A stretch of DNA of 64,000 bases from Bacteroidales bacterium (GTDB taxonomy: Bacteria > Bacteroidota > Bacteroidia > Bacteroidales > UBA932): the NCBI GenBank assembly GCA_012839605.1, contig DUNA01000006.1:11-64010 (forward strand), in the 5' to 3' direction. Shown one piece after another: positions 5,024-38,307 of the stretch. Every line of letters starts with the position of its first letter. Positions within the stretch are counted from its first letter, which is position 1. The position numbers and the translations under genes were made by a program. The notes below the pieces were generated by a model. That model worked only from the letters and a program-made list of their open reading frames with translations. It searched no databases and was not told where the DNA came from.

Positions 5024-5049
5024 AATCTAACTTGTTTAGTATATGATAA

Positions 5050-6668: not shown

Positions 6669-7526
6669 CTAAGCAGCATATTCATACCTGTAATTTGGGG
6701 TATAACGGTTCAGACTTTGATGGGTTCGTTGGTTATTGTAGTAGTAAAGATACTCTTTTAAGCCTTTCTGCAACTCTTTCCCATCTTCTGCCGGATTTAA
6801 ATAAACATATTCCCATTTAAGCGTTCTCCAAAATCTTTCTATATAAATGTTATCCAAAGCCCTTCCTCTTCCGTCCATACTGATAATGATATCCTCGTTT
6901 TTTAAATATTCCACCCATCCTGAACAGGTAAATTGGGATCCCTGGTCAGAATTAATAATTTCCGGTTTGCCATACAAAGCAATAGCCTCTTTTAATACCT
7001 CAAGCGAGTTTTGTGCGTCCAGTGTGTTGAATAATCCCCAACCAACTATATACCGGCTATATACATCGATAATGGCCGTCAGGTAAAGAAAACCGCGTTT
7101 CATAGGGATATATGTTAAATCTATACACCATACCTGATTACTGCGTGTTATTTCCAATCCTCTGAGCATATAGGGATGAATGTATTTGGCGATTCCCAAT
7201 TTACTCAGATTCTTTTGTGGATATATAGCCATGATTCCCATCTTTCGCAAAAGCCTGCGTACTCTTTTAGGACCGACCAATATGCCAAGCGTTTTAATAA
7301 AATCAACCATGCTCAACACACCCTTGTAAGGGTGGTCCAGAAATTCCTTATCCATATAACGCATCAACTCCAGATCTTCAGGATTTTCTGCTACCGGTTG
7401 ATAATATATGTTACTCCTGTTTACTCCCAAAAGCTCACATTGTCTGCGAACACTCACCTTATCCAGAGGATCTATGACTTTTTCGAGGGCTTCAGTATCC
7501 CCAATTGCTCTGAGACCCTTTTGCAA
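6669..7526 (-). CDS. IS3-family transposase OrfB (rve/DDE integrase core)
   Basis: Candidate DDE-context motifs are 'WCIDLTYIP', 'INSDQGSQFT' and 'ERFWRTLKWE'. The frame is -1 relative to orfA and stays open upstream of the tracked start through the A6 run. The two ORFs overlap by 55 nt. Confidence 0.9.
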   Translation of the reverse strand: MQKGLRAIGDTEALEKVIDPLDKVSVRRQCELLGVNRSNIYYQPVAENPEDLELMRYMDKEFLDHPYKGVLSMVDFIKTLGILVGPKRVRRLLRKMGIMAIYPQKNLSKLGIAKYIHPYMLRGLEITRSNQVWCIDLTYIPMKRGFLYLTAIIDVYSRYIVGWGLFNTLDAQNSLEVLKEAIALYGKPEIINSDQGSQFTCSGWVEYLKNEDIIISMDGRGRALDNIYIERFWRTLKWEYVYLNPAEDGKELQKGLKEYLYYYNNQRTHQSLNRYTPNYRYEYAA

Positions 7527-7780
7527 AAATCCACTTCTACCTCCAATCGGCCGATTTTTTCATATAAGGCCTTTTCACGTTTTATTACCTCTTCATCCGG
7601 AGCTTTGGTGGAAAAGATTTCTGAACCACGGGAAATGAATTCACGCTTCCAATTCGAAATCATTTGCGGATGCACTTCAAACCGTTTGGCCAGTTCGCTC
7701 AGTGTCTCCTGTTCTTTGATTGCCTCTATAGCCACTTGGGCTTTGAAGGCTGCACTGTGTTTCTTTCTTGTCTTTGACAT
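7472..7780 (-). CDS. IS3-family transposase OrfA (HTH, IS3/IS911-type)
   Basis: 102 aa. 'HSAAFKAQVAIEAIKEQETLSELAKRFEVHPQMISNWKREF' is a typical HTH_Tnp_1 domain, followed by a coiled-coil tail. Confidence 0.9.
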   Translation of the reverse strand: MSKTRKKHSAAFKAQVAIEAIKEQETLSELAKRFEVHPQMISNWKREFISRGSEIFSTKAPDEEVIKREKALYEKIGRLEVEVDFCKRVSEQLGILKPSKKS

Positions 7781-7840
7781 AATGGGTAAATTTAAGTGTT
7801 TTTGTTAAACTTACCCGGTGGTCTGAATTTACGGGAGTAT

Positions 7841-8080
7841 TATATTCTCCCCGTAGAGACTGTAATACCTGCTATATTTTTGTCCCACATCCAGCCGGTA
7901 TTTTTCGGAAAAAGGAGGATTTCCCAAAGTGTCTTTATGGAAAGTGTATAGATAATCCATTGTTAAAAGGCAGTCATCAATGGCTGTCATTCTGATAAAT
8001 TCTCTATTAACTCCACCAAGATCCTGTGCATAAACACTATTCGAAACGATTAAGAACAGAACTATCACTTTTGTTTTCAT
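7841..8080 (-). pseudogene. N-terminal fragment of the IS-interrupted GLPGLI family gene
   Basis: The signal peptide MKTKVIVLFLIVSNSVYAQ is followed by 'YLYTFHKDTL...YRLDVGQKYSRYYSLYGENI', which aligns with the N-termini of the paralogs at 8119..8985 and 5050..5955. The tracked ORF runs on into the IS and stops at 7829. Confidence 0.8.
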
Positions 8081-8118
8081 GTTTCAATACATTAGAATCG
8101 ACTTATGCAGACAAGTAT

Positions 8119-8985
8119 TTATTCCAATTCCCTGGCCGGAATATAAGGTCTCTTCCATTCTCCCGGACCAGCAGGTCTTTTAGTACCGTCGGGGTTCTTC
8201 AACGTAACATTGACTCTCTGACCGAGTGTCTGATACAGGAGAATTGGATCCTGCCAGGACATTTTTTGCAGTTTCAGATAGTCGGTTCTTGAACATTGTT
8301 GGGTACGTAATCCATCAAGCTTATACAGGATTCTGTTTGTTGGACGAAGGATAGCTGTGGCAGTCCATGTGAAGAGCTCTTCAGAATCTTGTGCCTTAAG
8401 GATCAGTCCAGGGAGACCGTTAAATTTCCAGGGTCCTGAAGAAATTGGAATTTCCTGCGTAAACCACACGTGGTATTCCCTTCCCCTGAAAACTGTAACA
8501 GCCTTAATACACTCGTAGCCAAGAATTTCTGTTTTCTCCTGCAGCAGATGCCACTCCATCCTGGGAACAGGTTCCTGATATACGTATTCCCTGTTGATAA
8601 CCCCGGATGAAACCATCAAGGTTCCTTTAGAAGGATAGTTGAAATAATAATCTTCGTAATTGATCTGAACGTCTTTTGCCAAATCTTTAAAAGGATTCAT
8701 TTGTCTTTCCGCGACTGCCCATGTAGAATCCACTTTTGCTCCGTTCAAACTGTAATATTTTGAGATTTGAGATCCAATTTCAAGGCAGTGTAAGTCGTGA
8801 AAACGGGTTTGGGTTACTGTGTCCTTATAAAAAGTATGTCTATAATTTACGGCATACCGGCAAGTATCAACAGGTACTTTGCTGGTTTTTTGCCTGAAAT
8901 AAGGATCATATACCTGTCCAAAACATTGAATTATGAACAAACTGAAAGACACGCATAAAAAGATTTTTCTCATTTTAATTAACAT
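8119..8985 (-). CDS. GLPGLI family protein
   Basis: 288 aa with a signal peptide, 'PWKFNGLPGLILKAQD' and a C-terminal 'PYIPARELE'. The start could instead be Met5 (8973). Confidence 0.85.
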   Translation of the reverse strand: MLIKMRKIFLCVSFSLFIIQCFGQVYDPYFRQKTSKVPVDTCRYAVNYRHTFYKDTVTQTRFHDLHCLEIGSQISKYYSLNGAKVDSTWAVAERQMNPFKDLAKDVQINYEDYYFNYPSKGTLMVSSGVINREYVYQEPVPRMEWHLLQEKTEILGYECIKAVTVFRGREYHVWFTQEIPISSGPWKFNGLPGLILKAQDSEELFTWTATAILRPTNRILYKLDGLRTQQCSRTDYLKLQKMSWQDPILLYQTLGQRVNVTLKNPDGTKRPAGPGEWKRPYIPARELE

Positions 8986-9012
8986 GAAAGTTTTAATAAA
9001 TAATATTCTAAG

Positions 9013-9047
9013 AAAAAACAGGGATAAAATTCAGTCCCTGTTTTTTT
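9013..9047 (-). terminator. Hairpin with flanking A/T runs immediately 3' of the RiPP precursor gene (possible intrinsic or bidirectional terminator)
   Basis: The plus strand reads 'AAAAAACAGGGA-taaaattcag-TCCCTGTTTTTTT'. On the minus strand the stem is followed by T6. It lies 8 nt after the precursor stop codon. Confidence 0.5.
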
Positions 9048-9054
9048 ATAAATC

Positions 9055-9279
9055 TTAAGGGTTTATTATCACTTCTTCAAGAAAGATAGTTAAATCCTCT
9101 AGTGGTACATCAGACCAAAGACCGTCTGCTTGATTTGCATAGCCATTATCTTGAGTTGAAGATCCACCATCATGTGCGTAGGCACATCCACAACCACAAG
9201 CGCCACCTCCAGTGATATGACTCATCTCTTTCTCATTAAGGCTATTTTTTTCAAGGTTATTTAATTTCAATGATTTCAT
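9055..9279 (-). CDS. GG-leader RiPP precursor peptide (GG-Bacteroidales rSAM-target type, TIGR04149-like)
   Basis: 74 aa. The leader 'MKSLKLNNLEKNSLNEKEMSHITGG' is followed by the Cys/Gly core 'GACGCGCAYAHDGG...'. The gene lies directly downstream of SPASM-domain genes. Confidence 0.75.
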   Translation of the reverse strand: MKSLKLNNLEKNSLNEKEMSHITGGGACGCGCAYAHDGGSSTQDNGYANQADGLWSDVPLEDLTIFLEEVIINP

Positions 9280-9491
9280 GACAACAAGAAATTATAAAAG
9301 CCTACTCGTTAGCTTTTCGGCATCCGCTCCGGATGATTTATACAGACCGGTTTCTGCATCACGATTACCTGCTCTCGGTTCTTGTGAAAAGAAGATATAA
9401 ATTTTATGCCTGTTTTCATTTTTACTTTGATATGTTTACAACCTTTGATCTGATGGAATAGGGTTTATCCGGCTGGCAAGACCGCGTAAAA

Positions 9492-10688
9492 CTATTTTAT
9501 TGTACATAAATTGTTTTTACCAAGAATCAATTCATATTGGCAGGGAGAAGGACAAAGCCACTGGTAAACACATCCGGAACAGGGCTCCTGGTCCCGGATT
9601 ACCCGCCAGGCAAAGTTTCTGTGTAATTCATTTTTAATTAAGTCATAAGGAGAATCCTGCATACATCCGATGGGTGGCTTGTTAACATTGGAATAAATCA
9701 ATCCGTCGGGTAACAAGACTAGTTTTCCAAAAAAATTAATATTAACTGCTTGGTGTGCGAATACAATCCTCTTGGATAGTCTTGTATTGGTAATATCTTC
9801 TTCATTCAAAAAAACAAACTGTTTGAAGAAAGCGTAATTATTATCGTAAATTGGGATATACCTGTACAGTTGTATTTTATATTGTGCTACCAGATGTTCC
9901 CAGTAATTGTACTCAGTCTGGCTCCTGATAAGGAAATTAAATTCAAAGGAATTTCGGGATTCGTCGGATGCGAGAAAATCATTCAACACTTTTAGTGAGG
10001 CTGGCTCGTATTCGCATATGAGGATAGTTGTTACATCGGGTTGTGTAAGAACGGAGGTTACATTATCTGACAGTTCCCGAACATGGCAATAATAAACAAC
10101 CGCTGGAGCCGTTGCTTTAAGTTTTTCCGTAAGAGATATTAAAAAATTTGTTGACTCAATATGTGAAAAAACAATATTGACCTTTTTAATATACCGGGAA
10201 TGTATATGACCAAGGAAGTTCAATATCTCTAAATCCTCAAGACAACTTTCGGAGTGGAACGGATAAAAGGTTTGTCGGTAATACAAAGGCCCTGAAAAAC
10301 GACCGCCGGCATATATGGTAAGGGTTGTCAAATACTTCAGGATGTCCTCGCCAAAGCTTTTTGAAGGACTATTTTCCAGTTTTTTTATATCATTCTGAAT
10401 AGAAAGAACGGGCGGAAGTGAATAAGCTTTTGCCGGATGTCTTGTAATGAATCCGTATTTTTTCCTGATTACCAGGTCAACAAATTCTGCTTCATCTGCT
10501 GTGAAATTCTCCGGTTCAATTTCAACAGAATACAGATTATCAACAAATAGTAAAGCAGAGCACAGGGATTTAAGTGAGGGCGTACAATTGAAGCCATCTT
10601 TTTCAAATGTTTTTGCATTATACAGTAACCCGGCACTAGCTTTCAGCCATAAAAAAGTGTCTGGGAGTAATGTTAAAACCTGTTTCAT
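9492..10688 (-). CDS. Pseudo-rSAM/SPASM protein of the GG-Bacteroidales peptide system (TIGR04150-like)
   Basis: 398 aa with no CX3CX2C motif. The C-terminal SPASM cysteine motif 'CSGCVYQWLCPSPC' is Cx2Cx5Cx3C. The start is 3 nt after the upstream stop, which suggests coupling. Confidence 0.65.
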   Translation of the reverse strand: MKQVLTLLPDTFLWLKASAGLLYNAKTFEKDGFNCTPSLKSLCSALLFVDNLYSVEIEPENFTADEAEFVDLVIRKKYGFITRHPAKAYSLPPVLSIQNDIKKLENSPSKSFGEDILKYLTTLTIYAGGRFSGPLYYRQTFYPFHSESCLEDLEILNFLGHIHSRYIKKVNIVFSHIESTNFLISLTEKLKATAPAVVYYCHVRELSDNVTSVLTQPDVTTILICEYEPASLKVLNDFLASDESRNSFEFNFLIRSQTEYNYWEHLVAQYKIQLYRYIPIYDNNYAFFKQFVFLNEEDITNTRLSKRIVFAHQAVNINFFGKLVLLPDGLIYSNVNKPPIGCMQDSPYDLIKNELHRNFAWRVIRDQEPCSGCVYQWLCPSPCQYELILGKNNLCTIK

Positions 10689-10691
10689 AAG

Positions 10692-11930
10692 TCATTCCAT
10701 TATAGCCTCTTTCATGATTTTTGCATACAAATAAGGGTGGTCTTTCAAGTAATCCATACAGGACACAGCATAGTATTTAAAAGCGGCATCTCCTGTATAT
10801 CCGGGACATACCGGAGCTTTGTTCTTATCAATACCAGGGATGAAATAAAGACACTGTGTACAACTTTTTTTTCTTTTACATAATTTACATTGAGCCTCCA
10901 TCTTTTCAAGATAGCTATTGTATTTATGAACAACGGAATCAAGATCCAATAATACGCTTTCTTCAGATATACTACCCAAAGCAAAAGAATGGTCTATTTT
11001 TTCACATTGCAAAATTTTACCATTTACTGTAACAAACATTTTTTTACCGAATGGTGTACACGTTCCGGTTGGTGTAACCGTAAAGTTTTCTTCATCTATA
11101 AACAGGCGGTTCAATTTCATATAAAATTGAGAAATATTAAATAAAACTCCCGGTTTATCGGTGTCATACATTCCTTTGAGAGAATCATTGACAGAGTGTA
11201 TGATGGCTTCCTTGAAAGTTGGACCTGTCTGGTAAAAGAATGCGTTTACCTTTTTTACAGATGGTATTAATTCATCGGGGATAGAGTCCATAGCATTAAT
11301 TTGCAGCACTATATTTTCAGCCTCTTCTGTTTTGCCTACATATATTTTAGCGTAAAACAGGTTAATATAAGCCAAAACATAATTTCTGTAATTCCCTGCC
11401 TTTTTACCAGCCTCCAGCCCCTTTTCATAACAGACCTCAGATTCAGGATAATTTCTGTTCCTAAGGTTGATGTCCCCCAAATACCCATACAGAAGCACCT
11501 GCAGAGTCTGGTTTTCTATGGCATGGGTCTTTATAACCTGTTCAGCTTCCCTCAAATGGACATATGGCAATGTGTCTATGGGATTGAGCCCATAACGGAC
11601 AATCCCCAGGTAGATCAGGGAGCGGGCAAGTTTTTCGGGATCTTTGCCGTTCCTGTACCATTCCGCTGCTAATGATATTATGGAATCGTCCGTGAAATCC
11701 ACATAAGATTTATCCCTGGCTATGGTCAGCAACAAATTGTAATAAGACTGCACTTCCCCGGGACACTCAGATACATCCATTTGTTCCAAACTATCCAGGA
11801 CAACCCGGGGCACGTGGCTGAGCAGGCTGTCCAGATTAGCCAGACGAGCTTGCATTACATGCTGCCTGATTGCCGTATTGCAGGAAACCAGCAGCAACAA
11901 GCCAAGCAGTATCCACAGGAATTTTTTCAT
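10692..11930 (-). CDS. Chimeric ORF: TPR-like lipoprotein N-terminus fused to the SPASM C-terminal domain of a radical-SAM peptide maturase (radical-SAM core absent)
   Basis: 412 aa. Residues 1 to ~270 carry the lipobox 'LLLLVSC' and a TPR-regulator-like helical region ('YYNLLLTIARDKSYVDFTDDSIISLAAEWY'). Residues ~285-412 read 'GTCTPFGKKMFVTVNGKILQC...CKLCKRKKSCTQC...VCPGY...HPYLYAKIMKEAIME', which is a SPASM motif set (Cx12Gx4C, Cx2Cx5Cx2C, C). No CX3CX2C is present. Confidence 0.7.
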   Translation of the reverse strand: MKKFLWILLGLLLLVSCNTAIRQHVMQARLANLDSLLSHVPRVVLDSLEQMDVSECPGEVQSYYNLLLTIARDKSYVDFTDDSIISLAAEWYRNGKDPEKLARSLIYLGIVRYGLNPIDTLPYVHLREAEQVIKTHAIENQTLQVLLYGYLGDINLRNRNYPESEVCYEKGLEAGKKAGNYRNYVLAYINLFYAKIYVGKTEEAENIVLQINAMDSIPDELIPSVKKVNAFFYQTGPTFKEAIIHSVNDSLKGMYDTDKPGVLFNISQFYMKLNRLFIDEENFTVTPTGTCTPFGKKMFVTVNGKILQCEKIDHSFALGSISEESVLLDLDSVVHKYNSYLEKMEAQCKLCKRKKSCTQCLYFIPGIDKNKAPVCPGYTGDAAFKYYAVSCMDYLKDHPYLYAKIMKEAIME

Positions 11931-11959
11931 GATTGTCCTGCTAAATTACAAAAATCGCT
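11915..11959. repeat. 45-bp direct repeat, copy A (5' UTR plus the first codons of the TPR-lipoprotein ORF)
   Basis: 'ACAGGAATTTTTTCATGATTGTCCTGCTAAATTACAAAAATCGCT' matches copy B at 43 of 45 positions. Confidence 0.9.
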
Positions 11960-12141
11960 TCAAAGAGAAAAGAGGTAGTATAACAAATGGACGAACCACA
12001 GGTTTGGCTTAATGCAAATGAATCTGACATTTATGAAGCGCCTCAGGCCTACAAACCCAAAGCAGAAATTCTACAGGCCATAGAGCCCCTTTGAAGACAA
12101 ATCCGTATGCTATAAAATTTTCATACCTTCACACAAAAACA

Positions 12142-12393
12142 ATGGACAACGATTTAACTATACTGCTTGAGACAACAGATAGGGTAATAGCAGAAGACAT
12201 TCAGGTTTTATTAGAAGACTCTCAGATTTATTCGTTGCTCGCTTCGGATAATCCGGCATCGTCTGTTTTAAGTATCTATCTCGGGTCTAATCCAATAGAA
12301 AACGTCAGCATTCAAGTAAACAAAAAAGATTATCAGAAAGCTGTTGAAATAATTAGTAACAGTGCATACAAGGATTTTTTAACAACTGTATAG
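12142..12393 (+). CDS. Small DUF2007-like (putative signal-transducing) protein
   Basis: 83 aa counted from the ATG at 12142; the tracked ORF starts at an upstream TTG. It has a two-half alpha/beta pattern ('TILLETTDRVIAEDIQVLLEDSQI' and 'IQVNKKDYQKAVEII'). Confidence 0.45.
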   Translation: MDNDLTILLETTDRVIAEDIQVLLEDSQIYSLLASDNPASSVLSIYLGSNPIENVSIQVNKKDYQKAVEIISNSAYKDFLTTV

Positions 12394-12406
12394 CAGAAAT
12401 GAAGGG

Positions 12407-13681
12407 TTAATCAAAATAATCCAGCAGCCACTTCCAGATAGGAATAACCTCAATAATGCGGCCATCTACTTCCAGAGTCTGTTCCTGATCTTTTGTTACA
12501 ATGATTAATCTTTTACAATCCAACACTTTAGTAATTTTTCTCAAAGCATCAACTTCCCGTTTGTACGTATCCGGGCTGCTGTCGAGCCTGTAACATACCT
12601 GAATGGCCAACGATGCTTCCGGAATATAAAAATCAACTTCGTGATTTTTGTGGTAATAAAAAACGGCATCTTCCCTGCCATATTTTCTGATCAGATTAAC
12701 TGCAACCAGGTTTTCAAGCAAGGCAGTATTGCCATCCAGCAAAAAAAGGTTGAGCAGTCCGTTATCCAGGAAGTAATATTTAGGATTGGTCTCTTTATTA
12801 ACTAGTTTGCCTGCAATATTTTGGATGGAAAGTAAGAGCCACGCATCTTTTGCATATTCCAGGTAGTTGATGATTGTATTTGTGGTTACTTTTGCTCCTG
12901 TTGAAGAAACAATATTCGCAACTCGGTTAAAAGACAAGGGTTGTCCAACGCTTTCTGCAATTTTTTTAAACATCACTCGTAATGCAAAGCTGTTAGAAAT
13001 AGTATTACGAGCTATTATATCGCCCAAAAAAACTTTTTGATATATACCGGATAGATAATTCCGTTTAACGGCAAAGTGAACTCCTTCCGGGAATCCTCCA
13101 AAAAAGAAATAATCCTGGAACTGCTTCATGAGTCTGGATTTTGTCTCTGTTGACATAGGCACTTTTTCGTTATAGCTGACTCCATTGGCAACTAAAAACT
13201 CTTTGAAACTATAGGGATACACTTCTACAGAAACAAACCTGCCTCCCAGTGTTGTTTGAATATCCGTGCTCAGCATTTTGGCATTGCTTCCTGTTATATA
13301 AACCTTATGCCCGGTATCGGCTAATCTGCGTGCAAATGTTTCCCAGCCTGCAACATTCTGAATTTCATCTAAAAATAAAACTGGTTTTTTACCATCAAGC
13401 TCTAAATGAATTTCCAGTAATAAGTTCAGATCGGTAGTTTCCATACCTATGAGACGTTCATCTTCAAAATTGACAAAGACAATCTGGTCCCATCCTGTGC
13501 CACTCCTCAGCAACTCCTGCATATGCTGATAAAGCAGGAATGATTTACCTGCCCTACGGATTCCTGTAAACACATAATTACCATACTCTTCAAATTGGAA
13601 TTCTCTTGGAATAACTCTGTATTTCGCAACCTCTTCGCGTGCATCGGCAAGCACTGTTTTTAATAGATCTTTGCTAATCAT
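12407..13681 (-). CDS. AAA+ ATPase (AAA_14 + DUF4143 architecture, COG1373-like)
   Basis: 424 aa with Walker A 'GIRRAGKSFLL' and Walker B 'VLFLDEIQNV'. The C-terminal 'EVDFYIP...' region is typical of DUF4143. Confidence 0.8.
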   Translation of the reverse strand: MISKDLLKTVLADAREEVAKYRVIPREFQFEEYGNYVFTGIRRAGKSFLLYQHMQELLRSGTGWDQIVFVNFEDERLIGMETTDLNLLLEIHLELDGKKPVLFLDEIQNVAGWETFARRLADTGHKVYITGSNAKMLSTDIQTTLGGRFVSVEVYPYSFKEFLVANGVSYNEKVPMSTETKSRLMKQFQDYFFFGGFPEGVHFAVKRNYLSGIYQKVFLGDIIARNTISNSFALRVMFKKIAESVGQPLSFNRVANIVSSTGAKVTTNTIINYLEYAKDAWLLLSIQNIAGKLVNKETNPKYYFLDNGLLNLFLLDGNTALLENLVAVNLIRKYGREDAVFYYHKNHEVDFYIPEASLAIQVCYRLDSSPDTYKREVDALRKITKVLDCKRLIIVTKDQEQTLEVDGRIIEVIPIWKWLLDYFD

Positions 13682-30832: not shown

Positions 30833-31546
30833 TTATTTTTTGATTTTTTTCCATACCTCTTCTTCCGGCAGCGGTCTGGTACAGAAGTACCAATCGTGGC
30901 ACGTCATATCTTCTCCGCCTGTCATTCTTTCCTCGGCAAGACCACAGGAACCGGCCGGAGGAACGATTACGTCATCACCGGGATGCCAGTCTGCGGGCAT
31001 AGCTGCACCATAAGCATCGGCTGCTTGCAAAGCAACAACTACACGATACAGTTCGTTAAAGTTACGACCCAAGCTGAGCGGATAATAAATGATGGTTCTG
31101 ATAATTCCTTTGGGATCAATAAAGAAAACAGCCCTTACAGCCTGTGTTTCACTTTCTCCCGGTTGTACCATTCCGTATTTGTTGGCTACATTCATAGAGA
31201 TGTCCTCAATCAAAGGGAATTTTACTTCTACGTTTTTCATTCCCTTGAATTCTATCTTCTCTTTAATAGACCTCAACCAAGCAATGTGACTGAACAATCC
31301 GTCAATAGACAAGCCCACCAATTTGCAATTGACTTCAGCAAACTTTTCTTCCATTACGGCAAAAGTCATAAATTCCGAAGTACAAACGGGTGTAAAGTCT
31401 GCCGGATGGCTAAACAAAATTACCCAGTTCCCCTCGTAATCTTGGGGAAAGTTCATAGGACCTTGTGTGGTCACAGCTTTAAATTCCGGTGCCGGATCTC
31501 CAATACGCGGCATAGATACATTTTTTTCCATTTCTTTCATTTCCAT
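30833..31546 (-). CDS. Peroxiredoxin (Prx6/1-Cys-like AhpC/TSA family)
   Basis: Contains 'IGDPAPEF' and the peroxidatic Cys context 'FSHPADFTPVCTSE'. The start was chosen at 'MEMKEMEKNVSMPRIG'; the ORF's 49-aa upstream extension was rejected. Confidence 0.85.
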   Translation of the reverse strand: MEMKEMEKNVSMPRIGDPAPEFKAVTTQGPMNFPQDYEGNWVILFSHPADFTPVCTSEFMTFAVMEEKFAEVNCKLVGLSIDGLFSHIAWLRSIKEKIEFKGMKNVEVKFPLIEDISMNVANKYGMVQPGESETQAVRAVFFIDPKGIIRTIIYYPLSLGRNFNELYRVVVALQAADAYGAAMPADWHPGDDVIVPPAGSCGLAEERMTGGEDMTCHDWYFCTRPLPEEEVWKKIKK

Positions 31547-31575
31547 GACAATAAATTTATACGATATATAAAATA

Positions 31576-31589
31576 TTTGTGTACACAAA
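31576..31589. promoter_or_regulatory. Perfect 14-bp palindrome (candidate operator) in the peroxiredoxin / DUF134-operon divergent region
   Basis: 'TTTGTGTACACAAA' overlaps a minus-strand TAnnTTTG element ('TATCTTTG', 31586-31593) placed for the peroxiredoxin gene. Confidence 0.45.
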
Positions 31590-31624
31590 GATACATGAAT
31601 TTTTGTTATTAAACAAAAGTTCAT

Positions 31625-31632
31625 TATATTTG
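31625..31632 (+). promoter_or_regulatory. Bacteroidetes -7 promoter element upstream of the DUF134 operon
   Basis: 'TATATTTG' sits 22 nt upstream of the ATG at 31654. Confidence 0.5.
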
Positions 31633-31653
31633 TTTTAAACATATACTCATAAT

Positions 31654-32073
31654 ATGGCACGTCCAAAGAAATTAAGAAAACTGAAAAACCCACCCATTGT
31701 AAAGGGCTTCAGCCCCATTGGTAAGGCAACCGGAAAAGGACAAGAACCTATTTTGATCAACTACGACGAATACGAAGCCTTGCGTCTTGCCGACTACAAC
31801 ATGAGCAACCATTTACAAGCATCTGTGAAAATGCAAATCTCGCGAGCCACCTTTACTCGTATTTATGCCCATGCCAGACGCAAATTAGCTACAGCTCTTG
31901 TAGAAGGAAGACCGATTCTCTTTCAAGGAGGTCCCGTGTACTTTGACAGCCAATGGCACTATTGCAGGCAATGCCCCTGTTATTTTAATCATCTTGAGAA
32001 AGACGAAAAAACAATCGCTTGTCCGCTTTGCCTTTCTACCGATATCACATCTTGTAAAGAAAAAATTTTTTAA
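31654..32073 (+). CDS. DUF134 (UPF0251, COG1342) putative DNA-binding protein with C-terminal Cys cluster
   Basis: 139 aa. The N-terminus 'MARPKKLRKLKNPPIVKGFSP' and 'EYEALRLADY...ISRATFTRIY' are typical of DUF134. The tail reads 'CRQCPC...CPLC...C'. Confidence 0.8.
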   Translation: MARPKKLRKLKNPPIVKGFSPIGKATGKGQEPILINYDEYEALRLADYNMSNHLQASVKMQISRATFTRIYAHARRKLATALVEGRPILFQGGPVYFDSQWHYCRQCPCYFNHLEKDEKTIACPLCLSTDITSCKEKIF

Positions 32074-32083
32074 AAACAATATT

Positions 32084-32410
32084 ATGAAAATTGCTATTAC
32101 TTCTTCAGGAAACAGCCCCGACTCTGTTATGGACAGTCGTTTTGGGCGTTGTATGTATTTTGTTTTTTACGACACAAAAACGGGTGCTATGGAATTTGTT
32201 CCCAACCCCAATAAAGACGCCATTGAGGGTGCGGGCCCCGCTTCTGTACAGCTTGTCGCCTCTAAAGGAGTGGACAAAGTAATTTCCGGAGAATTTGGAA
32301 ACAAAGTGAAGGCTCTTTTTGACAGCCTGAAGGTACAGTTGATTATTCCGGAAAATCCCAGTTTGACCATCAATCAAATTGTGGACAAGTTTGTTAAACA
32401 ACAAAAATAA
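32084..32410 (+). CDS. NifX/NifB-C-terminal-like Fe-Mo-cluster-binding domain protein (COG1433)
   Basis: 108 aa from 'MKIAITSS', with 'SRFGRCMYFVFYD' and 'GAGPASVQLVASKGVDKVISGEFG'. Confidence 0.75.
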   Translation: MKIAITSSGNSPDSVMDSRFGRCMYFVFYDTKTGAMEFVPNPNKDAIEGAGPASVQLVASKGVDKVISGEFGNKVKALFDSLKVQLIIPENPSLTINQIVDKFVKQQK

Positions 32411-32419
32411 GGTACAGTT

Positions 32420-32755
32420 ATGAGAAAATTTGCCATTCCTCTGGAAAGCGGACGTTTGTGCTCCCATTTTGGACATTGCAAACAATTCGCGCTCATTGAT
32501 GTAAAAGAAAACACCATCACGTCACAAGAATTCCTCACCCCTCCTCCGCATGAACCGGGTCTGCTGCCCGCTTGGCTGGCAGAAAAAGGAGTAACACACA
32601 TTATTGCGGCAGGAATTGGACAAAGAGCCATCAATTTATTTACCCAACATAACATTGAAGTATGTGTGGGTGCTGAAAGCGATCTGCCGGAAAATATCGT
32701 TCGCAATTACTTGGACAAGACACTGGAAACGAACGACAATCTTTGTGACCACTAA
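32420..32755 (+). CDS. NifX/NifB-C-terminal-like Fe-Mo-cluster-binding domain protein (second copy)
   Basis: 111 aa with 'SHFGHCKQFALIDV' and 'GVTHIIAAGIGQRAINLF'. Confidence 0.75.
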   Translation: MRKFAIPLESGRLCSHFGHCKQFALIDVKENTITSQEFLTPPPHEPGLLPAWLAEKGVTHIIAAGIGQRAINLFTQHNIEVCVGAESDLPENIVRNYLDKTLETNDNLCDH

Positions 32756-32767
32756 TATTTGACGACT

Positions 32768-33625
32768 ATGAAAATTGCAATTGCCAGTGGCAAAGGCGGT
32801 ACAGGAAAAACATTTGTAGCCACCAACTTGTTTTACGTGGCCGCAAAAGAAGGAAGACAAGTTACTCTTACAGATTGCGACGCAGAAGAACCTAACGTAT
32901 CGGTTTTTATTCAAGGAAAAACAATCGAAGAGAAATTGGTGTCGCAAAACTTGGCCGTCATTGATCCGCAGCTGTGTATTTACTGCGGAAAATGTAGGGA
33001 CTGGTGTGAATACAATGCCATTGTTTGTTTGGAAGAACAACGCAAGATCTATTTATTGGACGACCTGTGTCACGATTGCGGAGCTTGTCTGGTAGCCTGT
33101 CCTGTAGGAGCCATCACAGAAAAAGAACGTCGTTTGGGTGTCATTACCACAGCCATAACTAAGAAAAACAATGTACTTATAGAAGCCCGAGCAGATGTAG
33201 GCGTATACTCCTCTGTTCCCGTCATCAAAGCAGCTTTGGCCAAATCCGGTCATCCACCCTTGCTTTTATTAGATGCACCACCGGGTATATCTTGTCCGTT
33301 TATAGCCACAGTGGCTCCGGCAGATTTCGTTATCCTGGTAACAGAACCCACTCCTTTTGGATTGAATGATTTGTCTCTTTCTGTCCAGACATTGGAGCAA
33401 TTGAACAAACCTTTTGGTGTTGTAGTAAATCGCGACGGACTGGGAGATGAAAAGGTATACCATTGGTTGGAAGAAAAAGGCATACCGTTACTTATGAAGA
33501 TTCCTTTTGATAAGAAAATTGCAGAAATATACGCCAGAGGCCATTTGCCGGCTGCAGAAGATGAAACATACAAAAAACACTTTGTAGAAATCCTCCAAAA
33601 AGTAGAAGAGCTATGCGAAAAATAA
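32768..33625 (+). CDS. MinD/ParA-superfamily P-loop ATPase with inserted 4Fe-4S ferredoxin domain (COG1149)
   Basis: Carries a deviant Walker A 'IASGKGGTGKT'. Two Cys clusters are present, 'CIYCGKCRDWC' and 'CHDCGACLVACP'. A TTG at 32759 is an alternative start. Confidence 0.85.
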   Translation: MKIAIASGKGGTGKTFVATNLFYVAAKEGRQVTLTDCDAEEPNVSVFIQGKTIEEKLVSQNLAVIDPQLCIYCGKCRDWCEYNAIVCLEEQRKIYLLDDLCHDCGACLVACPVGAITEKERRLGVITTAITKKNNVLIEARADVGVYSSVPVIKAALAKSGHPPLLLLDAPPGISCPFIATVAPADFVILVTEPTPFGLNDLSLSVQTLEQLNKPFGVVVNRDGLGDEKVYHWLEEKGIPLLMKIPFDKKIAEIYARGHLPAAEDETYKKHFVEILQKVEELCEK

Positions 33626-34497
33626 AACAAATATCTGTATTGAGTGGTAAAGGCGGTACCGGAAAAACTTCATTGGTAGCTGCGTTTGCCACCTTAGCCC
33701 AAGATCCTGTAATAGCCGACTGCGATGTAGATGCAGCCAATTTGTATTTGGTACTCCATCCGGAGAATTACAAAGAAGATGCATTTGTGTCCGGACATTC
33801 TGCCGTTATAGACTACGATTTGTGTACGCATTGCGGCCTTTGTATGACATACTGCAGGTTCGATGCTATAGACAGGAAACAGGAAGAAGGTTTTCCAAAA
33901 GGAAAAATCACCATTGATGAAATCAATTGCGACGGGTGCCGATTGTGCTCGCGTATATGCCCGGAAGAAGCCATTATCATGGTTCCGGAAGACAGGAGCC
34001 GTTGGTTTATTGGGAATTACAGAAACGGCAACATGGTCCATGCCCGTCTGGCTCCGGGGGAAGAAAATTCAGGGAAGTTGGTAAGCAAAGTCAGAGAGTT
34101 GGCCAAAGAAACAGCAGAAGAAGCCGGTACGGATTTGATCATCATTGACGGACCACCGGGAACGGGGTGTTCAGCCATAGCATCTCTTACAGGTACAGAT
34201 AAAGTATTGATAGTAACCGAACCTACAGAGAGCGGCCTGCATGATTTAAAGCGCATTGCTGAATTGGCCGGAAAGTTTAAAGTAGAGCGGTATGTAGTCA
34301 TCAACAAATACGATTTGAATCAGAAGATGACAGAAGCCATTAAAGAATGGTGCAAACAGGAAAACATCCCCATTCCGGCTCTCATACCTTTTGATCCGGA
34401 AATAGTCCATGCCATGGTACAATGCAAAAGCATCACAGAGTGGGCTCCGGAATCTTCTGTATCAAAAATCATTAAAGAGTTGTACGAATATCTTTAA
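33613..34497 (+). CDS. MinD/ParA-superfamily P-loop ATPase with inserted 4Fe-4S ferredoxin domain (second copy)
   Basis: 294 aa with 'LSGKGGTGKTS', 'CTHCGLCMTYC' and 'CDGCRLCSRICP'. It overlaps the upstream gene by 13 nt. Confidence 0.85.
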   Translation: MRKIKQISVLSGKGGTGKTSLVAAFATLAQDPVIADCDVDAANLYLVLHPENYKEDAFVSGHSAVIDYDLCTHCGLCMTYCRFDAIDRKQEEGFPKGKITIDEINCDGCRLCSRICPEEAIIMVPEDRSRWFIGNYRNGNMVHARLAPGEENSGKLVSKVRELAKETAEEAGTDLIIIDGPPGTGCSAIASLTGTDKVLIVTEPTESGLHDLKRIAELAGKFKVERYVVINKYDLNQKMTEAIKEWCKQENIPIPALIPFDPEIVHAMVQCKSITEWAPESSVSKIIKELYEYL

Positions 34498-34547: not shown

Positions 34548-34551
34548 GTTG

Positions 34552-34624
<73 letters not shown>

Positions 34625-36065: not shown

Positions 36066-37457
36066 CTATAAAATCCCGATTTTCAGAAATTCCAAAATAG
36101 ACTTCGCCGCCTTTCTACCGGCCCCCATGGCCAAAATTACCGTTGCGGCTCCTGTCACCACATCTCCACCTGCAAAGACACCTTCACGCGAAGTCACGCC
36201 GTTTTCATCGGCTACTATTCCGTTGTATCTGTTCATCTCCAAACCGGGAGTAGTTCTTCCAATAAGTGGGTTGGAATCGGTACCAAGAGCTATGATCACC
36301 ACGTCACATGAAATGTCAAACGTGGAATCGGGGATTTCCACCGGCCTGCGTCTGCCGCTTTCATCCGGTTCTCCCAATTCCATTTGAACACATTGCAAAC
36401 CGGTAACCCAACCTCTCTCATTTCCTAACACAGCCGTCGGGTTTGTAAGCAATTGAAATACCACTCCTTCTTCTTTGGCATGGTGTACCTCTTCAATTCG
36501 GGCCGGCATTTCTTTTTCTGTTCTCCTGTAGGCTACCACTACTTCTGCCCCCAAACGCAACGCAGTACGTGCCGCGTCCATGGCCACATTGCCTCCGCCC
36601 ACTACTACCACTTTCCTACCCACGTATATGGGCGTTTCCGATTCCGGATCATACGCTGCCATCAAATTGCTGCGCGTCAAAAATTCATTGGCCGATACAA
36701 CTCCGTTCAAGTTTTCTCCGGGGATGTTCAAAAATTTGGGCAATCCCGCTCCCGATCCAATAAATACAGCATGAAAACCTTCTTCAAACAATTGGTCAAC
36801 TGTAACGGTGCGGCCCACCACCACGTTGGTTTCTATAGTGACTCCCATCTTCTGCAACTGGCCTATTTCATACTCAACGACATCTTCCTTAGGCAAACGG
36901 AATTCAGGAATTCCATACACCAACACTCCGCCGGGTTTATGTAACGCTTCAAAAACAGTTACGTCGCAACCGGCCCTGGCCAAGTCTGTAGCACAAGCCA
37001 ATCCGGCCGGTCCCGATCCGACGACGGCTACCTTTTTCCCATTGGACGGTACCTTTTCTGATGTGGAAAATTGGTTTTCTTTAGCCCAGTCAGCCACATA
37101 ACGCTCCAATTTCCCAATAGAAATAGGCTCGTGTTTGATGCCCATGATACAAGCTCCCTCACACTGTACTTCTTGCGGACATACCCGTCCGCATACAGCC
37201 GGTAAGGAGGAATCGGCGGCAATGATGGTAGCGGCAGATTCCATATTTCCTTCCACAATGGCTTTGATAAACTGCGGAATTTGAATACTTACGGGACAAC
37301 CGGCCACACAACGCGGATTCTTGCATTGAATACAACGGGCTGCCTCTAGAACGGCTTCTTCTGTATTGTATCCGTAACTTACTTCTTCAAAATTTTTCAC
37401 CCGTTCTGCCGGATCCTGACTTCTTACAGGAATTCTGTTTGCTTGTATTTTAGCCAT
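36066..37457 (-). CDS. GltD-like NADPH-dependent oxidoreductase, large subunit (NfnB/SudA-type)
   Basis: 463 aa. The N-terminal Fe-S Cys clusters read 'RCIQCKNPRCVAGCPV' and '...CGRVCP..C..AC'. Two dinucleotide folds are present, 'VAVVGSGPAGLACA' and 'VVVVGGGNVAMDAA'. Confidence 0.8.
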   Translation of the reverse strand: MAKIQANRIPVRSQDPAERVKNFEEVSYGYNTEEAVLEAARCIQCKNPRCVAGCPVSIQIPQFIKAIVEGNMESAATIIAADSSLPAVCGRVCPQEVQCEGACIMGIKHEPISIGKLERYVADWAKENQFSTSEKVPSNGKKVAVVGSGPAGLACATDLARAGCDVTVFEALHKPGGVLVYGIPEFRLPKEDVVEYEIGQLQKMGVTIETNVVVGRTVTVDQLFEEGFHAVFIGSGAGLPKFLNIPGENLNGVVSANEFLTRSNLMAAYDPESETPIYVGRKVVVVGGGNVAMDAARTALRLGAEVVVAYRRTEKEMPARIEEVHHAKEEGVVFQLLTNPTAVLGNERGWVTGLQCVQMELGEPDESGRRRPVEIPDSTFDISCDVVIIALGTDSNPLIGRTTPGLEMNRYNGIVADENGVTSREGVFAGGDVVTGAATVILAMGAGRKAAKSILEFLKIGIL

Positions 37458-38307
37458 TTTTCAATCCAATTCTACATTTATGATCTGCATCTGCCTCTTG
37501 TGTTTTGTACATGCCTTGACGCCGCATGGCTTCGTCAAAGTTTACTTGATACGCGTCAAATTCCGGACCGTCCACACAGGCAAATTTCGTTTGACCTCCT
37601 ACCGTAACACGACATGCTCCGCACATGCCCGTACCGTCTACCATCAATGTGTTCAAACTCACAGTCAACGGCAAGTCGTACTCTTTGGCTGACAACGTAA
37701 CAAACTTCATCATAATCATAGGCCCTATGGCAACGGCTTGATCGTACGTGTGCCCGGCATCCAGCAATTCTTTCATTTTCTCTGTAACCAAACCCTTAAA
37801 ACCATACGAACCGTCGTCTGTACACACATACACTTCTTTGGCTACTTGGCGCATCTCTTCCTCCATAATGACCAAATCCTTCGTTTTGGCTCCTATAATG
37901 ACCTCTACGTGTGCTCCTTTTTCATGCAAATATTTCACCTGCGGATAGACAGGTGCCGTTCCCAACCCTCCGGCTATAAATAAATACTTCTTTTGTTTCA
38001 ATGCCTCATCTTCTTCGTGAATAAATGCCGAAGGCACTCCCAGCGGGCCGGCAAAATCAACAAATGCATCGCCTTCTTCCAAGGCACAAATTCTGCGGGA
38101 AGAAGCACCTACCTGCTGAGTTACTATAGTCACCGAACCTGCCAGGGGATTGTAATCACATATAGTCAATGGAATTCTTTCTCCCACTTCACTTACTCGT
38201 ACAATTAAAAATTGTCCCGGTTTGGCAGAAGAGGCAATACGCGGGGCCAGCACCTCCATCAAACAAATATCGGGTGCCAAAAAACGTTTTTTCAAAATGT
38301 CATACAT
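37450..38307 (-). CDS. Ferredoxin-NADP reductase-like FAD/NAD-binding small subunit (NfnA/SudB-type)
   Basis: 285 aa with 'PGQFLIVRV...ERIPLTI' and 'LFIAGGLGTAPV'. The C-terminal 2Fe-2S motif is 'DGTGMCGACRV...FACVDGP'. It overlaps the downstream partner by 8 nt. Confidence 0.8.
   Translation of the reverse strand: MYDILKKRFLAPDICLMEVLAPRIASSAKPGQFLIVRVSEVGERIPLTICDYNPLAGSVTIVTQQVGASSRRICALEEGDAFVDFAGPLGVPSAFIHEEDEALKQKKYLFIAGGLGTAPVYPQVKYLHEKGAHVEVIIGAKTKDLVIMEEEMRQVAKEVYVCTDDGSYGFKGLVTEKMKELLDAGHTYDQAVAIGPMIMMKFVTLSAKEYDLPLTVSLNTLMVDGTGMCGACRVTVGGQTKFACVDGPEFDAYQVNFDEAMRRQGMYKTQEADADHKCRIGLKNG

What the first reader, a model, noticed from the sequence alone, without database searches (positions are those of the whole stretch)
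31654..34497. DUF134 - 2x NifX-like - 2x MinD/ferredoxin ATPase cluster: conserved anaerobe module of unknown function
Five co-directional genes with short gaps or overlaps encode three kinds of protein. One is a UPF0251/DUF134 putative DNA-binding protein with an extra C-terminal Cys cluster. Two are small NifX/NifB-C-terminal-type cluster-binding proteins (COG1433). Two are P-loop MinD-family ATPases, each with an inserted 2x[4Fe-4S] ferredoxin domain (COG1149). This organism shows no nitrogenase genes in the window, so the NifX-like proteins are unlikely to serve FeMo-co. The composition is a scaffold/carrier plus a redox-active ATPase pair plus a regulator. That suggests an assembly or insertion machine for an unidentified metallocluster or cofactor. 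It sits next to peroxide and superoxide defence genes. As far as I know, no biochemical function has been assigned to this cluster type.
Basis: partly seen in the sequence, partly recalled or inferred. Interest (0 to 1): 0.6.

Follow-up and report, generated by a model that had tools for sequence, protein, structure and literature searches.

The report
Minimal orange-protein (ORP) operon, DUF134-regulated
The five genes are a real, widely conserved operon. It is a stripped-down Bacteroidales version of the published but functionally unsolved "orange protein" iron-sulfur ATPase complex of anaerobes, headed by its own DNA-binding regulator and paired with a peroxide-defence gene, so it is a known kind of system rather than a new one.

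Summary
Five co-directional genes (31654-34497) encode a DUF134 helix-turn-helix protein with a conserved Cys tail, two NifX-fold proteins, and two MinD-type ATPases that each carry two CxxCxxCxxxC motifs.

The claim that this cluster type is undescribed does not hold. [quoted passage not shown]
- Gene 2 matches the D. gigas orange protein (PDB 2WFB).
- Gene 3 is a free-standing copy of the MrpORP "Di-Nase" domain, with its CxHFGHC and CDH motifs.
- Genes 4 and 5 are one-to-one orthologues of the two ATPases next to the ORP gene in a Desulfovibrio locus, in the same order.

The gene order recurs in 80 Bacteroidales loci. A 1-Cys peroxiredoxin lies next to the DUF134 gene in about 35 of them. 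Two TGAAC-N4-GTTCA-like sites flank a conserved Bacteroidota-type promoter in front of the operon.

The genome has no nitrogenase or MinC hit, and it does have SUF and Mrp.

Most likely function (inferred): ATP- and ferredoxin-coupled handling of an Fe-S or metal-sulfide cluster, under a Cys-sensing repressor. The physiological role remains unknown, as it does in Desulfovibrio.

This scan has already reported the same cluster type and operator many times on other DNA. I rate it a new member of a known kind, of modest interest.

The parts
30833..31546 (-). 1-Cys peroxiredoxin (237 aa from the ATG at 31546), transcribed divergently from the operon. It is a conserved neighbour of the DUF134 gene.
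   Evidence: PF00578 E 4e-30 plus 1-cysPrx_C. The start was placed from conservation of the TTTCCAT block in 11 relatives. A Prx lies next to DUF134 in about 35 of 80 Bacteroidales loci: divergent in about 31, and co-directional with a 5-nt gap in L020 and L024.
31547..31653 (.). 107-bp divergent control region. It holds a Prx -7 box on the minus strand (31586-31593, CAAAGATA, which reads TAnnTTTG when reverse-complemented). It also holds the operon's -33 TTTG (31602-31605) and -7 box TATATTTG (31625-31632).
   Evidence: Sequence. The -7 box columns are invariant in 18 loci that share about 50% protein identity. That the boxes match the Bacteroidota TTTG/TAnnTTTG promoter consensus is established knowledge, not tested here.
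31610..31623 (.). Operator-like palindrome, site 1: TAAACAAAAGTTCA (TGAAC-N4-GTTCA with 1 mismatch). It lies in the promoter spacer, between the two divergent -7 boxes.
   Evidence: The block CAAATGTTCA is conserved in relatives.
31636..31649 (.). Operator-like palindrome, site 2: TAAACATATACTCA. It is degenerate here (3 mismatches); relatives have TGAACAAATGCTCA. It lies directly after the -7 box, over the expected transcription start.
31654..32073 (+). g1: DUF134/UPF0251 protein. It has a sigma-70-region-4-like helix-turn-helix core (residues about 33-91) and a C-terminal Cys module (C104-x2-C107-x-C109 ... C123-x2-C126). It is the putative repressor and sensor of the operon.
   Evidence: PF02001 E 6e-22. 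Cys residues are invariant. The AF2 core has pLDDT 83-96. Foldseek matches ECF sigma region 4 and the DeoR DNA-binding domain at rmsd 0.8-0.9 A.
32084..32410 (+). g2: orange-protein-type NifX-fold protein (Orp8-like). It has the RFGR motif and no Cys/His ligand motif.
   Evidence: PF02579. PDB 2WFB (D. gigas ORP) E 9e-10 over the full length; 1RDU E 5e-12. Its best partner in the Desulfovibrio sp. X2 locus is the ORP gene.
32420..32755 (+). g3: free-standing 'Di-Nase' NifX-fold protein of the MrpORP C-terminal type. It carries C14-S-H16-F-G-H19-C20, H44 and a C-terminal C109-D-H111.
   Evidence: NF041136 MrpORP positions 266-365, E 5.7e-38. The motifs are invariant or nearly so in 16 sequences. 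The same motifs are named as putative cluster ligands in PMC6345978. Its best partner in Desulfovibrio sp. X2 is the HFGHC-type gene.
32768..33625 (+). g4: A-type MinD/SIMIBI ATPase (285 aa). A 2x[4Fe-4S] ferredoxin domain is inserted after switch I, and there is an extra invariant Cys in D-x-PPGISC-P.
   Evidence: Orthologue of the X2 302-aa ATPase: 39% identity, E 3e-67, against 31%, E 6e-33 to the other paralogue. AF2 pLDDT 87.9. Foldseek matches MinD, FleN, ATPase-type HypB, NifH and Cfd1.
33613..34497 (+). g5: B-type MinD/SIMIBI ATPase (294 aa) with a 2x[4Fe-4S] insert. It overlaps g4 by 13 nt.
   Evidence: Orthologue of the X2 315-aa ATPase: 43% identity, E 6e-87, against 32%, E 4e-42 to the other paralogue. 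It is 31% identical to g4.
34551..34624 (-). tRNA-Met gene on the opposite strand. It marks the downstream end of the operon.
   Evidence: ARAGORN.

Best explanation
The locus is a single five-gene operon that encodes a minimal Orange Protein (ORP) type complex together with its own regulator.

Shown:
- g4 and g5 are an ancient paralogue pair of MinD/NifH-class (SIMIBI) ATPases. Each carries a two-[4Fe-4S] ferredoxin domain inserted next to the nucleotide switch region. They are orthologous one-to-one to the two ATPases beside the orange-protein gene in Desulfovibrio.
- g2 is an orange-protein-type NifX-fold carrier.
- g3 is the Cys/His-motif 'Di-Nase' NifX-fold domain. In D. vulgaris this domain is fused to the Fe-S carrier MrpORP.
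- g1 is a sigma-region-4-like helix-turn-helix protein with five invariant Cys.
- The promoter in front of g1 is flanked by two conserved TGAAC-N4-GTTCA-like palindromes.

Inferred:
- g4 and g5 form a heterodimer. ATP binding and hydrolysis gates electron flow through its ferredoxin domains, as in nitrogenase Fe protein and related ATPases.
- This drives the building, holding, reduction or hand-over of an Fe-S or heterometal-sulfide cluster carried on the two NifX-fold proteins.
- The system is an accessory to the housekeeping SUF and Mrp machinery and works at low redox potential.
- DUF134 binds the palindromes as a repressor of the operon, and probably of the divergent peroxiredoxin promoter. 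Its Cys module senses redox state, metal or cluster availability. In this it plays the part that the Fe-S-containing sigma-54 activator OrpR plays in Desulfovibrio.
For: Identity of the proteins:
- Pfam and NCBIfam hits.
- g2 matches D. gigas ORP, PDB 2WFB, E 9e-10.
- g3 matches MrpORP profile positions 266-365, E 5.7e-38. Its CxHFGHC and CDH motifs are conserved and are the motifs proposed as cluster ligands in PMC6345978.
- Best-match pairing (queries from the window only) with the Desulfovibrio sp. X2 orp locus, which is anchored by an ORP 74% identical to D. gigas ORP. g4 and g5 are only 31% identical to each other.

Co-conservation:
- The same gene order occurs in 80 Bacteroidales loci.

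Published biochemistry of the homologues:
- Orp3, Orp4 and Orp8 co-purify with Fe-S absorbance, and MrpORP transfers Fe-S to them.
- orp genes are expressed only at low redox potential.

ATPase class:
- Deviant Walker A and conserved motifs.
- Confident model that matches MinD, NifH, ATPase-type HypB and Cfd1.

Regulator:
- HTH fold and invariant Cys residues.
- Conserved promoter with flanking palindromes.
- A Prx lies next to DUF134 in about 35 of 80 loci.

Genome context:
- No nitrogenase and no MinC.
- SufBD and a separate Mrp are present.
Against: - No experiment anywhere assigns a physiological function to the ORP complex.
- The only phenotype reported in Desulfovibrio is a morphology or cell-division defect.
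- The Mrp-Di-Nase fusion and the sigma-54 regulator OrpR of the reference system are absent here.
- The heterodimer, ATP-gated electron transfer and the nature of the cargo cluster are inferences from domain content.
- The operator sites in this genome are degenerate (1 and 3 mismatches), and the motif is not enriched elsewhere in the genome.
- The DUF134 model is only moderately confident overall (pLDDT 67.5), and its Foldseek E-values are weak (0.06) because the domain is small.
Confidence: 0.6

Rival explanations
1. Cell-division or positioning system. The two MinD-like ATPases position the division septum or the chromosome, as first proposed for the Desulfovibrio ORP complex. The Fe-S and NifX-fold parts would only make this positioning redox-dependent.
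For: The Desulfovibrio authors describe the orp genes as 'putatively involved in cell division' and in positioning the septum. MrpORP localises to a cell pole. The closest solved folds to g4 are MinD, FleN, FlhG and Soj.
Against: - No MinC was detected in this genome.
- The ATPases are always coupled to NifX-fold cluster carriers. In larger relatives they are also coupled to DUF5320, CGGC, DsrE-like and ferritin-like genes, which points to metal-sulfur chemistry.
- NifH, ATPase-type HypB and Cfd1 score almost as well as MinD.
- The published division link rests on a regulator mutant's morphology.
Confidence: 0.12
2. Storage or detoxification of inorganic metal-sulfide species. The NifX-fold proteins would sequester thioferrate-like Fe-S polymers (as IssA does) or thiomolybdate/thiotungstate-copper clusters (as D. 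gigas ORP does) in sulfide-rich habitats. The ATPases would load or unload them.
For: - D. gigas ORP binds a non-covalent S2MoS2CuS2MoS2 cluster.
- IssA, of the same Pfam family, stores thioferrate (both cited in PMC6345978).
- g2 has no Cys/His ligand motif, as expected for non-covalent anion binding.
- The genome has MoeA, so molybdenum is used.
- A ferritin-like gene sits in the extended clusters.
Against: - g2 lacks the cationic tail described for IssA (sequence).
- No ModA-type molybdate-binding protein was found.
- The Mo-Cu cluster may be a purification or in-vitro product.
- This reading overlaps the main explanation rather than excluding it.
Confidence: 0.15
3. Remnant or accessory of nitrogenase cofactor biosynthesis (NifX/NafY/NifB-C-terminal role in FeMo-co trafficking).
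For: Both small proteins belong to PF02579, 'dinitrogenase iron-molybdenum cofactor'.
Against: - No nitrogenase component 1 (PF00148) was found in the genome.
- The cluster is found across non-diazotrophic Bacteroidales.
- The best structural relatives are ORP, TM1290 and TM1816-type proteins, not NifX.
Confidence: 0.02

Closest known systems
Orange Protein (ORP) complex and orp operons of Desulfovibrio vulgaris Hildenborough (Orp3/DVU2103, Orp4/DVU2104, Orp5, Orp8/DVU2108, Orp9 = MrpORP/DVU2109; Fievet 2011; PMC6345978; PMC8359166)
   Same: - An ORP-type NifX-fold protein.
- Two paralogous MinD-like ATPases, each with two [4Fe-4S] motifs, encoded side by side.
- A Di-Nase-type NifX-fold domain with CxHFGHC and CDH motifs.
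- One-to-one orthology of the two ATPases with a Desulfovibrio orp locus.
   Different: - One operon instead of two divergent ones.
- The regulator is a DUF134 HTH protein on a Bacteroidota-type promoter, not the sigma-54 activator OrpR with IHF.
- The Di-Nase domain is free-standing, and Mrp is encoded elsewhere in the genome.
- No Orp5 equivalent was recognised.
- A peroxiredoxin is a conserved neighbour.
Orange protein of Megalodesulfovibrio (Desulfovibrio) gigas, PDB 2WFB
   Same: g2 aligns over its full length (E 9e-10). It shares the same fold family and the same lack of Cys ligands.
   Different: Only about 26-30% identity. Whether g2 binds a Mo-Cu sulfide cluster is unknown.
MrpORP (NF041136), an Mrp/NBP35 Fe-S carrier with a C-terminal Di-Nase domain
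   Same: g3 matches the C-terminal 100 residues at E 5.7e-38 and has both Cys/His motifs.
   Different: g3 has no P-loop domain. The whole-protein cut-off of 450 bits is not met, so it is not an MrpORP equivalog. Desulfovibrio sp. X2 likewise has a free-standing version.
SIMIBI-class redox and metallochaperone ATPases: nitrogenase Fe protein NifH, ATPase-type HypB, Cfd1/Nbp35
   Same: Same fold and deviant Walker A. An Fe-S centre is placed next to the nucleotide switch region, which suggests nucleotide-gated electron or cluster transfer.
   Different: The clusters sit in an inserted ferredoxin domain rather than bridging the dimer. No solved structure has this insert.
OrpR (DVU2106), the Fe-S redox-sensing sigma-54 activator of the orp operons
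   Same: A dedicated regulator encoded in the cluster, with a Cys-based sensing module. In Desulfovibrio it ties orp expression to low redox potential.
   Different: An unrelated protein family with the opposite logic: OrpR is an activator at a sigma-54 promoter, whereas DUF134 is a presumed repressor overlapping a -33/-7 promoter.

Membership tests
ORP (orange protein) complex gene cluster | Orange-protein-type PF02579 protein homologous to D. gigas ORP | tested here: met
   g2 against 2WFB: E 9e-10, residues 2-105 against 6-109. Its best match in the Desulfovibrio sp. X2 locus is the ORP gene.
ORP (orange protein) complex gene cluster | Two adjacent paralogous MinD-like ATPases, each with two [4Fe-4S] ferredoxin motifs (Orp3/Orp4) | tested here: met
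   In searches from the window proteins, each has its best match in the corresponding X2 ATPase: 39% and 43% identity, E 3e-67 and 6e-87, against 31-32% for the cross pairs. The gene order is the same.
ORP (orange protein) complex gene cluster | Mrp/NBP35-Di-Nase fusion protein (MrpORP/Orp9) | tested here: not met
   Only the Di-Nase part is present, as g3 (131 bits against a cut-off of 450). A separate Mrp lies on another contig. The Desulfovibrio sp. X2 cluster also lacks the fusion, so this feature is not universal.
ORP (orange protein) complex gene cluster | Control by sigma-54, OrpR and IHF | tested here: not met
   There is no sigma-54 activator ORF in or beside the operon. Instead there is a conserved TTTG/TAnnTTTG-type promoter with a DUF134 gene.
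ORP (orange protein) complex gene cluster | Small [2Fe-2S] protein Orp5 | not tested
The Cys tail of g1 was not compared with it.
ORP (orange protein) complex gene cluster | The proteins form a physical complex that carries Fe-S clusters | not testable with these tools
   Shown only for D. vulgaris (PMC6345978).
ORP (orange protein) complex gene cluster | Restricted to anaerobes, with a patchy distribution | tested here: inconclusive
   A g5 orthologue at E <= 1e-50 was found in 8 of 301 sampled genomes of the phylum. The relatives' record titles point to anaerobic digesters and sediments. Lifestyles could not be checked.
DUF134 / UPF0251 (PF02001) DNA-binding regulators | Match to PF02001 and a helix-turn-helix fold | tested here: met
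   E 6e-22. The model core matches sigma-70 region 4 and the DeoR DNA-binding domain at rmsd 0.8-0.9 A.
DUF134 / UPF0251 (PF02001) DNA-binding regulators | Conserved palindromic site on its own promoter | tested here: met
   TGAAC-N4-GTTCA-like blocks flank the invariant -7 box in 18 loci. In the window they lie at 31610-31623 and 31636-31649. Actual binding cannot be tested here.
MinD/ParA (SIMIBI) ATPases | Deviant Walker A KGGxGK[ST] and the MinD-like fold | tested here: met
   SGKGGTGKT is invariant. Foldseek matches MinD at E 5e-12.
Min cell-division system | Partner proteins MinC and MinE | tested here: not met
   No MinC_C hit in the genome, which is 92.5% complete. MinE was not searched.
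NifX/NafY FeMo-cofactor carriers | Works with nitrogenase NifDK | tested here: not met
   PF00148 is absent from the genome.

The most novel reading that the evidence does not exclude
In Bacteroidales the ORP module may be part of an oxidative-stress circuit. On this reading, DUF134 uses its five-Cys module as a redox or Fe-S sensor and jointly controls a 1-Cys peroxiredoxin and the ORP operon from one shared control region. The ORP complex would then salvage or re-reduce oxygen-damaged Fe-S clusters. That would give the long-unsolved ORP complex a concrete physiological role.
Probability: 0.2. Interest if true: 0.6.

Novelty: new member of a known kind. Interest (0 to 1): 0.3.

Why it matters
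The ORP complex is one of the more widespread gene sets of anaerobes whose function is still unassigned. More than 7,900 close homologues of one ATPase alone were scored.

This copy adds no new kind of system, but it is useful in three ways.
- It is a minimal set. A 1.65-Mb genome keeps just the regulator, two NifX-fold proteins and the ATPase pair, which suggests these five are a self-sufficient unit.
- It shows that the ATPase pair is an ancient A/B heterodimer type, conserved between phyla.
- The conserved peroxiredoxin neighbour and the shared control region give a simple, testable link to redox stress.

Tried and rejected
- **Nitrogenase link:** rejected. There is no PF00148 hit in the genome.
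- **Min-system reading:** weakened. There is no MinC hit.
- **Other operator copies:** the pattern -7 box plus TGAAC-N4-GYTCA with up to 2 mismatches gave 18 hits against 19 for the reversed control. In the window, the bare palindrome is at chance level apart from the operon site. There is therefore no evidence for a wider regulon.
- **Motif parsing:** I first read the conserved upstream block as TGTTCA-N12-TGAACA or as a direct repeat. After seeing earlier scan notes I re-read it as two 14-bp palindromes, and the search supports this.
- **The second DUF134 paralogue:** it has no such site upstream. A tRNA-Pro gene abuts it instead.
- **Prx-DUF134 operons of L020 and L024:** they lack TGAAC-N4-GTTCA and carry a different perfect palindrome.
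- **Literature:** searches for DUF134, UPF0251 and COG1342 found nothing on this family. The hits were DUF134x prefixes. The key paper, Fievet 2011 (PMC3133258), is not held.
- **PDB:** a sequence search with DUF134 found nothing.
- **Tools lost:** A g2 orthologue alignment failed on a frame error and was not repeated.


Full report
**1. What is there**

ORF listing and profile searches confirm five + strand genes.
- g1, 31654-32073: DUF134/UPF0251, PF02001 E 6e-22.
- g2, 32084-32410: PF02579, E 5.6e-14.
- g3, 32420-32755: PF02579, E 2e-18.
- g4: the ORF runs from TTG 32759. Orthologues are 285 aa and begin MKIAIASGKGG, so ATG 32768 is the likely start. It ends at 33625.
- g5, 33613-34497.

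The gaps are 10, 9 and 12 nt, and g4 and g5 overlap by 13 nt. Terminator-like sites inside the block do not exceed shuffled expectation. A tRNA-Met on the other strand (34551-34624) closes the unit.

Upstream lie a 1-Cys peroxiredoxin (minus strand, 30833-31546) and an Fe/Mn SOD. The window comes from a 1.65-Mb, 91-contig, 92.5%-complete genome. Its nearest relatives are uncultured Bacteroidales from digesters and sediments, judged from record titles.

**2. What it is**

The NCBIfam scan gave the key lead. g3 matches positions 266-365 of the 'MrpORP' model at E 5.7e-38. [quoted passage not shown] That complex consists of:
- Orp3 and Orp4, MinD-like, each with two [4Fe-4S] motifs;
- Orp5;
- Orp8, the orange protein, of the PF02579 family;
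- Orp9.

It is encoded by two divergent sigma-54 operons under OrpR (PMC6345978, PMC8359166, PMC3897727).

The links to the window's genes are as follows.
- g2 aligns over its full length with the crystallised D. gigas orange protein (2WFB, E 9e-10).
- g3 carries C-S-H-F-G-H-C near its N-terminus and C-D-H at its C-terminus. These are the two motifs that PMC6345978 singles out in the Di-Nase domain. They are invariant or nearly so in 16 sequences.

To compare the ATPases directly, I took the D. gigas ORP sequence printed and found an ORP that is 74% identical in Desulfovibrio sp. X2. I then fetched its locus (L089). Its layout is: sigma-54 PAS activators, two small ORFs, ORP, a 302-aa ATPase, a 315-aa ATPase, an HFGHC-type NifX-fold gene.

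Pairwise BLASTP gives a clean one-to-one pattern (window proteins as queries).

| Window gene | Best partner in X2 | Identity, E | Other X2 paralogue |
|---|---|---|---|
| g4 | 302-aa ATPase | 39%, 3e-67 | 31%, 6e-33 |
| g5 | 315-aa ATPase | 43%, 6e-87 | 32%, 4e-42 |
| g2 | ORP | 4e-10 | |
| g3 | HFGHC-type gene | 9e-16 | |

g4 and g5 are only 31% identical to each other. The A/B duplication is therefore older than the split, or the transfer, between the two phyla, and the A-then-B gene order is kept. The module is thus the ORP core, not an undescribed cluster type.

**3. Conservation**

A scan of one genome per species with a g4 alignment returned 513 confirmed loci, and the best 80 were fetched. 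I ran tblastn with the window's proteins against those 80.
- ATPase A and ATPase B are adjacent in all 80.
- The order DUF134, ORP, Di-Nase, A, B holds wherever the flank is long enough.
- The closest relatives (76-90% identity) share the whole RelA, SOD, Prx, five genes, HisRS block.

Larger genomes insert further genes between the core genes. In L032 these are DUF5320 (twice), a DsrE-like lipoprotein, an ARMT1/DUF89-like protein and a CGGC-domain protein, with a ferritin-like gene next to Prx. The window has the bare core.

In an even sample of the phylum, a g5 orthologue (E <= 1e-50) occurs in only 8 of 301 genomes. The system is therefore patchy and accessory.

**4. The regulator and its site**

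The DUF134 C-terminal module C-x2-C-x-C...C-x2-C is invariant in 20 orthologues.

An AlphaFold model has a confident core (residues 33-91, pLDDT 83-96). Foldseek matches this core to ECF sigma region 4 and to the B. subtilis DeoR DNA-binding domain on its operator (rmsd 0.8-0.9 A over about 48 residues, probability 1.0, E about 0.06).

I aligned the DNA upstream of DUF134 in 11 close and then 18 more distant loci. Both alignments show:
- an invariant TAnnTTTG box (window 31625-31632), with TTTG 19 nt upstream (31602-31605), which is the Bacteroidota -7/-33 promoter form;
- two conserved blocks flanking the box.

After reading earlier notes of this scan, I recognised the two blocks as TGAAC-N4-GTTCA-type palindromes.
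- Site 1 is TAAACAAAAGTTCA (31610-31623, 1 mismatch).
- Site 2 is TAAACATATACTCA (31636-31649, 3 mismatches). Relatives have TGAACAAATGCTCA at this position.

Site 1 lies between the operon's -7 box and a conserved minus-strand -7 box for the peroxiredoxin (31586-31593). One bound protein could therefore affect both promoters; this is an inference.

The motif is not enriched elsewhere in the genome.

**5. The peroxiredoxin link**

A Prx lies directly next to DUF134 in about 35 of the 80 loci. It is divergent in about 31. In L020 and L024 it lies in the same orientation with a 5-nt gap. In those two loci the Prx-DUF134 pair is preceded by a different perfect palindrome, ATAGTTTTGAGTA-NN-TACTCAAAACTAT, placed just before a -7 box. 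Several Prolixibacteraceae loci have a second DUF134-ORP pair beside the Prx.

This recurring neighbourhood is the main thing the present window adds to what the literature says. It suggests, but does not show, that the module is tied to oxidative stress. That would fit the Desulfovibrio finding that orp transcription is switched off when the redox potential rises.

**6. How it probably works**

Shown:
- domain content;
- motifs;
- orthology;
- synteny;
- the promoter and palindrome architecture.

Taken from published work on the homologues:
- Orp3, Orp4 and Orp8 co-purify and carry Fe-S.
- The Di-Nase domain binds an Fe-S cluster.
- ORP can hold a Mo-Cu sulfide cluster.
- Mrp-type carriers can load the complex.

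Inferred: g4 and g5 form a SIMIBI heterodimer. The model has pLDDT 87.9, and its nearest folds are MinD, FleN, ATPase-type HypB, NifH and Cfd1. The ferredoxin domains are inserted right after the DCDxE/D switch-I segment, and an extra invariant Cys follows Walker B. This would couple the nucleotide state to electron or cluster transfer to the two NifX-fold carriers.

The genome has SufBD and a separate Mrp, so the module is an accessory, not the general Fe-S machinery.

I put the identity as an ORP-type operon at about 0.9, and the cluster-handling mechanism at about 0.45. The combined statement gets 0.6.

**7. Rivals**

- Cell division is the published suggestion. Here it lacks MinC, and it does not explain the obligatory NifX-fold partners.
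- Metal-sulfide storage or detoxification, on the model of IssA or thiomolybdate binding, is compatible with g2's ligand-free sequence. It overlaps the main reading.
- A nitrogenase role is excluded by the absence of NifDK.

**8. Novelty**

The cluster type is published, and this scan has already reported it, with the DUF134 operator, on many other genomes. The DUF134-led Bacteroidales form, the unfused Di-Nase protein and the Prx pairing do not appear in the papers I could search. They are variations in accessory parts. My verdict is a new member of a known kind, with interest 0.3.

**9. Limits**

- The Python machine was lost, so there are no trees and no statistics beyond.
- Fievet 2011 is not held, so I could not check what Orp5 and Orp7 are.

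Noticed in passing
own genome contig C31, locus L007 833-2668 (minus strand): There is a second DUF134 paralogue, about 38% identical to g1, which keeps four of the Cys residues. It sits in a same-strand array: secreted Fe/Mn SOD, tRNA-Pro(UGG), DUF134, MntP manganese exporter. Its ATG overlaps the 3' end of the tRNA. In five genomes of the same genus, tRNA-Pro(UGG) lies directly upstream of the DUF134 paralogue. In the one neighbourhood examined in detail (L112), SOD is also upstream and the downstream gene is a uracil-DNA-glycosylase-like gene, not MntP. Both DUF134 genes of this genome therefore lie beside oxidative-stress genes.
   Followed up: partly
L020 2370-2440 and L024 2410-2470: In two Prolixibacteraceae loci the peroxiredoxin and DUF134 genes are co-directional with a 5-nt gap. 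They are preceded by a perfect palindrome, ATAGTTTTGAGTA-NN-TACTCAAAACTAT, directly before a TAnnTTTG box. This differs from the TGAAC-N4-GTTCA sites and may be a specificity variant of the DUF134 operator or the site of another regulator.
   Followed up: partly
L032 740-9035 (Prolixibacteraceae chromosome): This is an extended version of the cluster. It contains Prx, a ferritin-like protein, a DUF134 with a longer tail carrying two extra CxxC pairs, ORP, two DUF5320 mini-proteins, Di-Nase, a DsrE-like lipoprotein, an ARMT1/DUF89-like protein, a CGGC-domain protein, ATPase A and ATPase B. A glyoxalase-like gene and a radical-SAM gene follow.
   Followed up: partly
L021, L023, L028, L041, L071, L088: The DUF134 + ORP gene pair is duplicated, and the extra copy lies on the other side of the peroxiredoxin gene. 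This suggests the pair is a mobile or independently selected sub-module.
   Followed up: no
window 36066-38307 (minus strand): Two overlapping genes look by eye like an NfnAB/sulfide-dehydrogenase-type pair: a GltD-like NADPH oxidoreductase of 463 aa and a PyrK-like FAD/[2Fe-2S] subunit of 285 aa. They could be a source of reduced ferredoxin close to the ORP operon. No profile search was run on them.
   Followed up: no
L089 (Desulfovibrio sp. X2) 3689-12491: The reference orp locus has two PAS/sigma-54 activator genes back to back. Before ORP it has a 168-aa ORF with a weak NifX-like hit and a Gly/Arg-rich tail. Just downstream of the cluster it has a beta-lactamase-fold + rhodanese gene.
   Followed up: no
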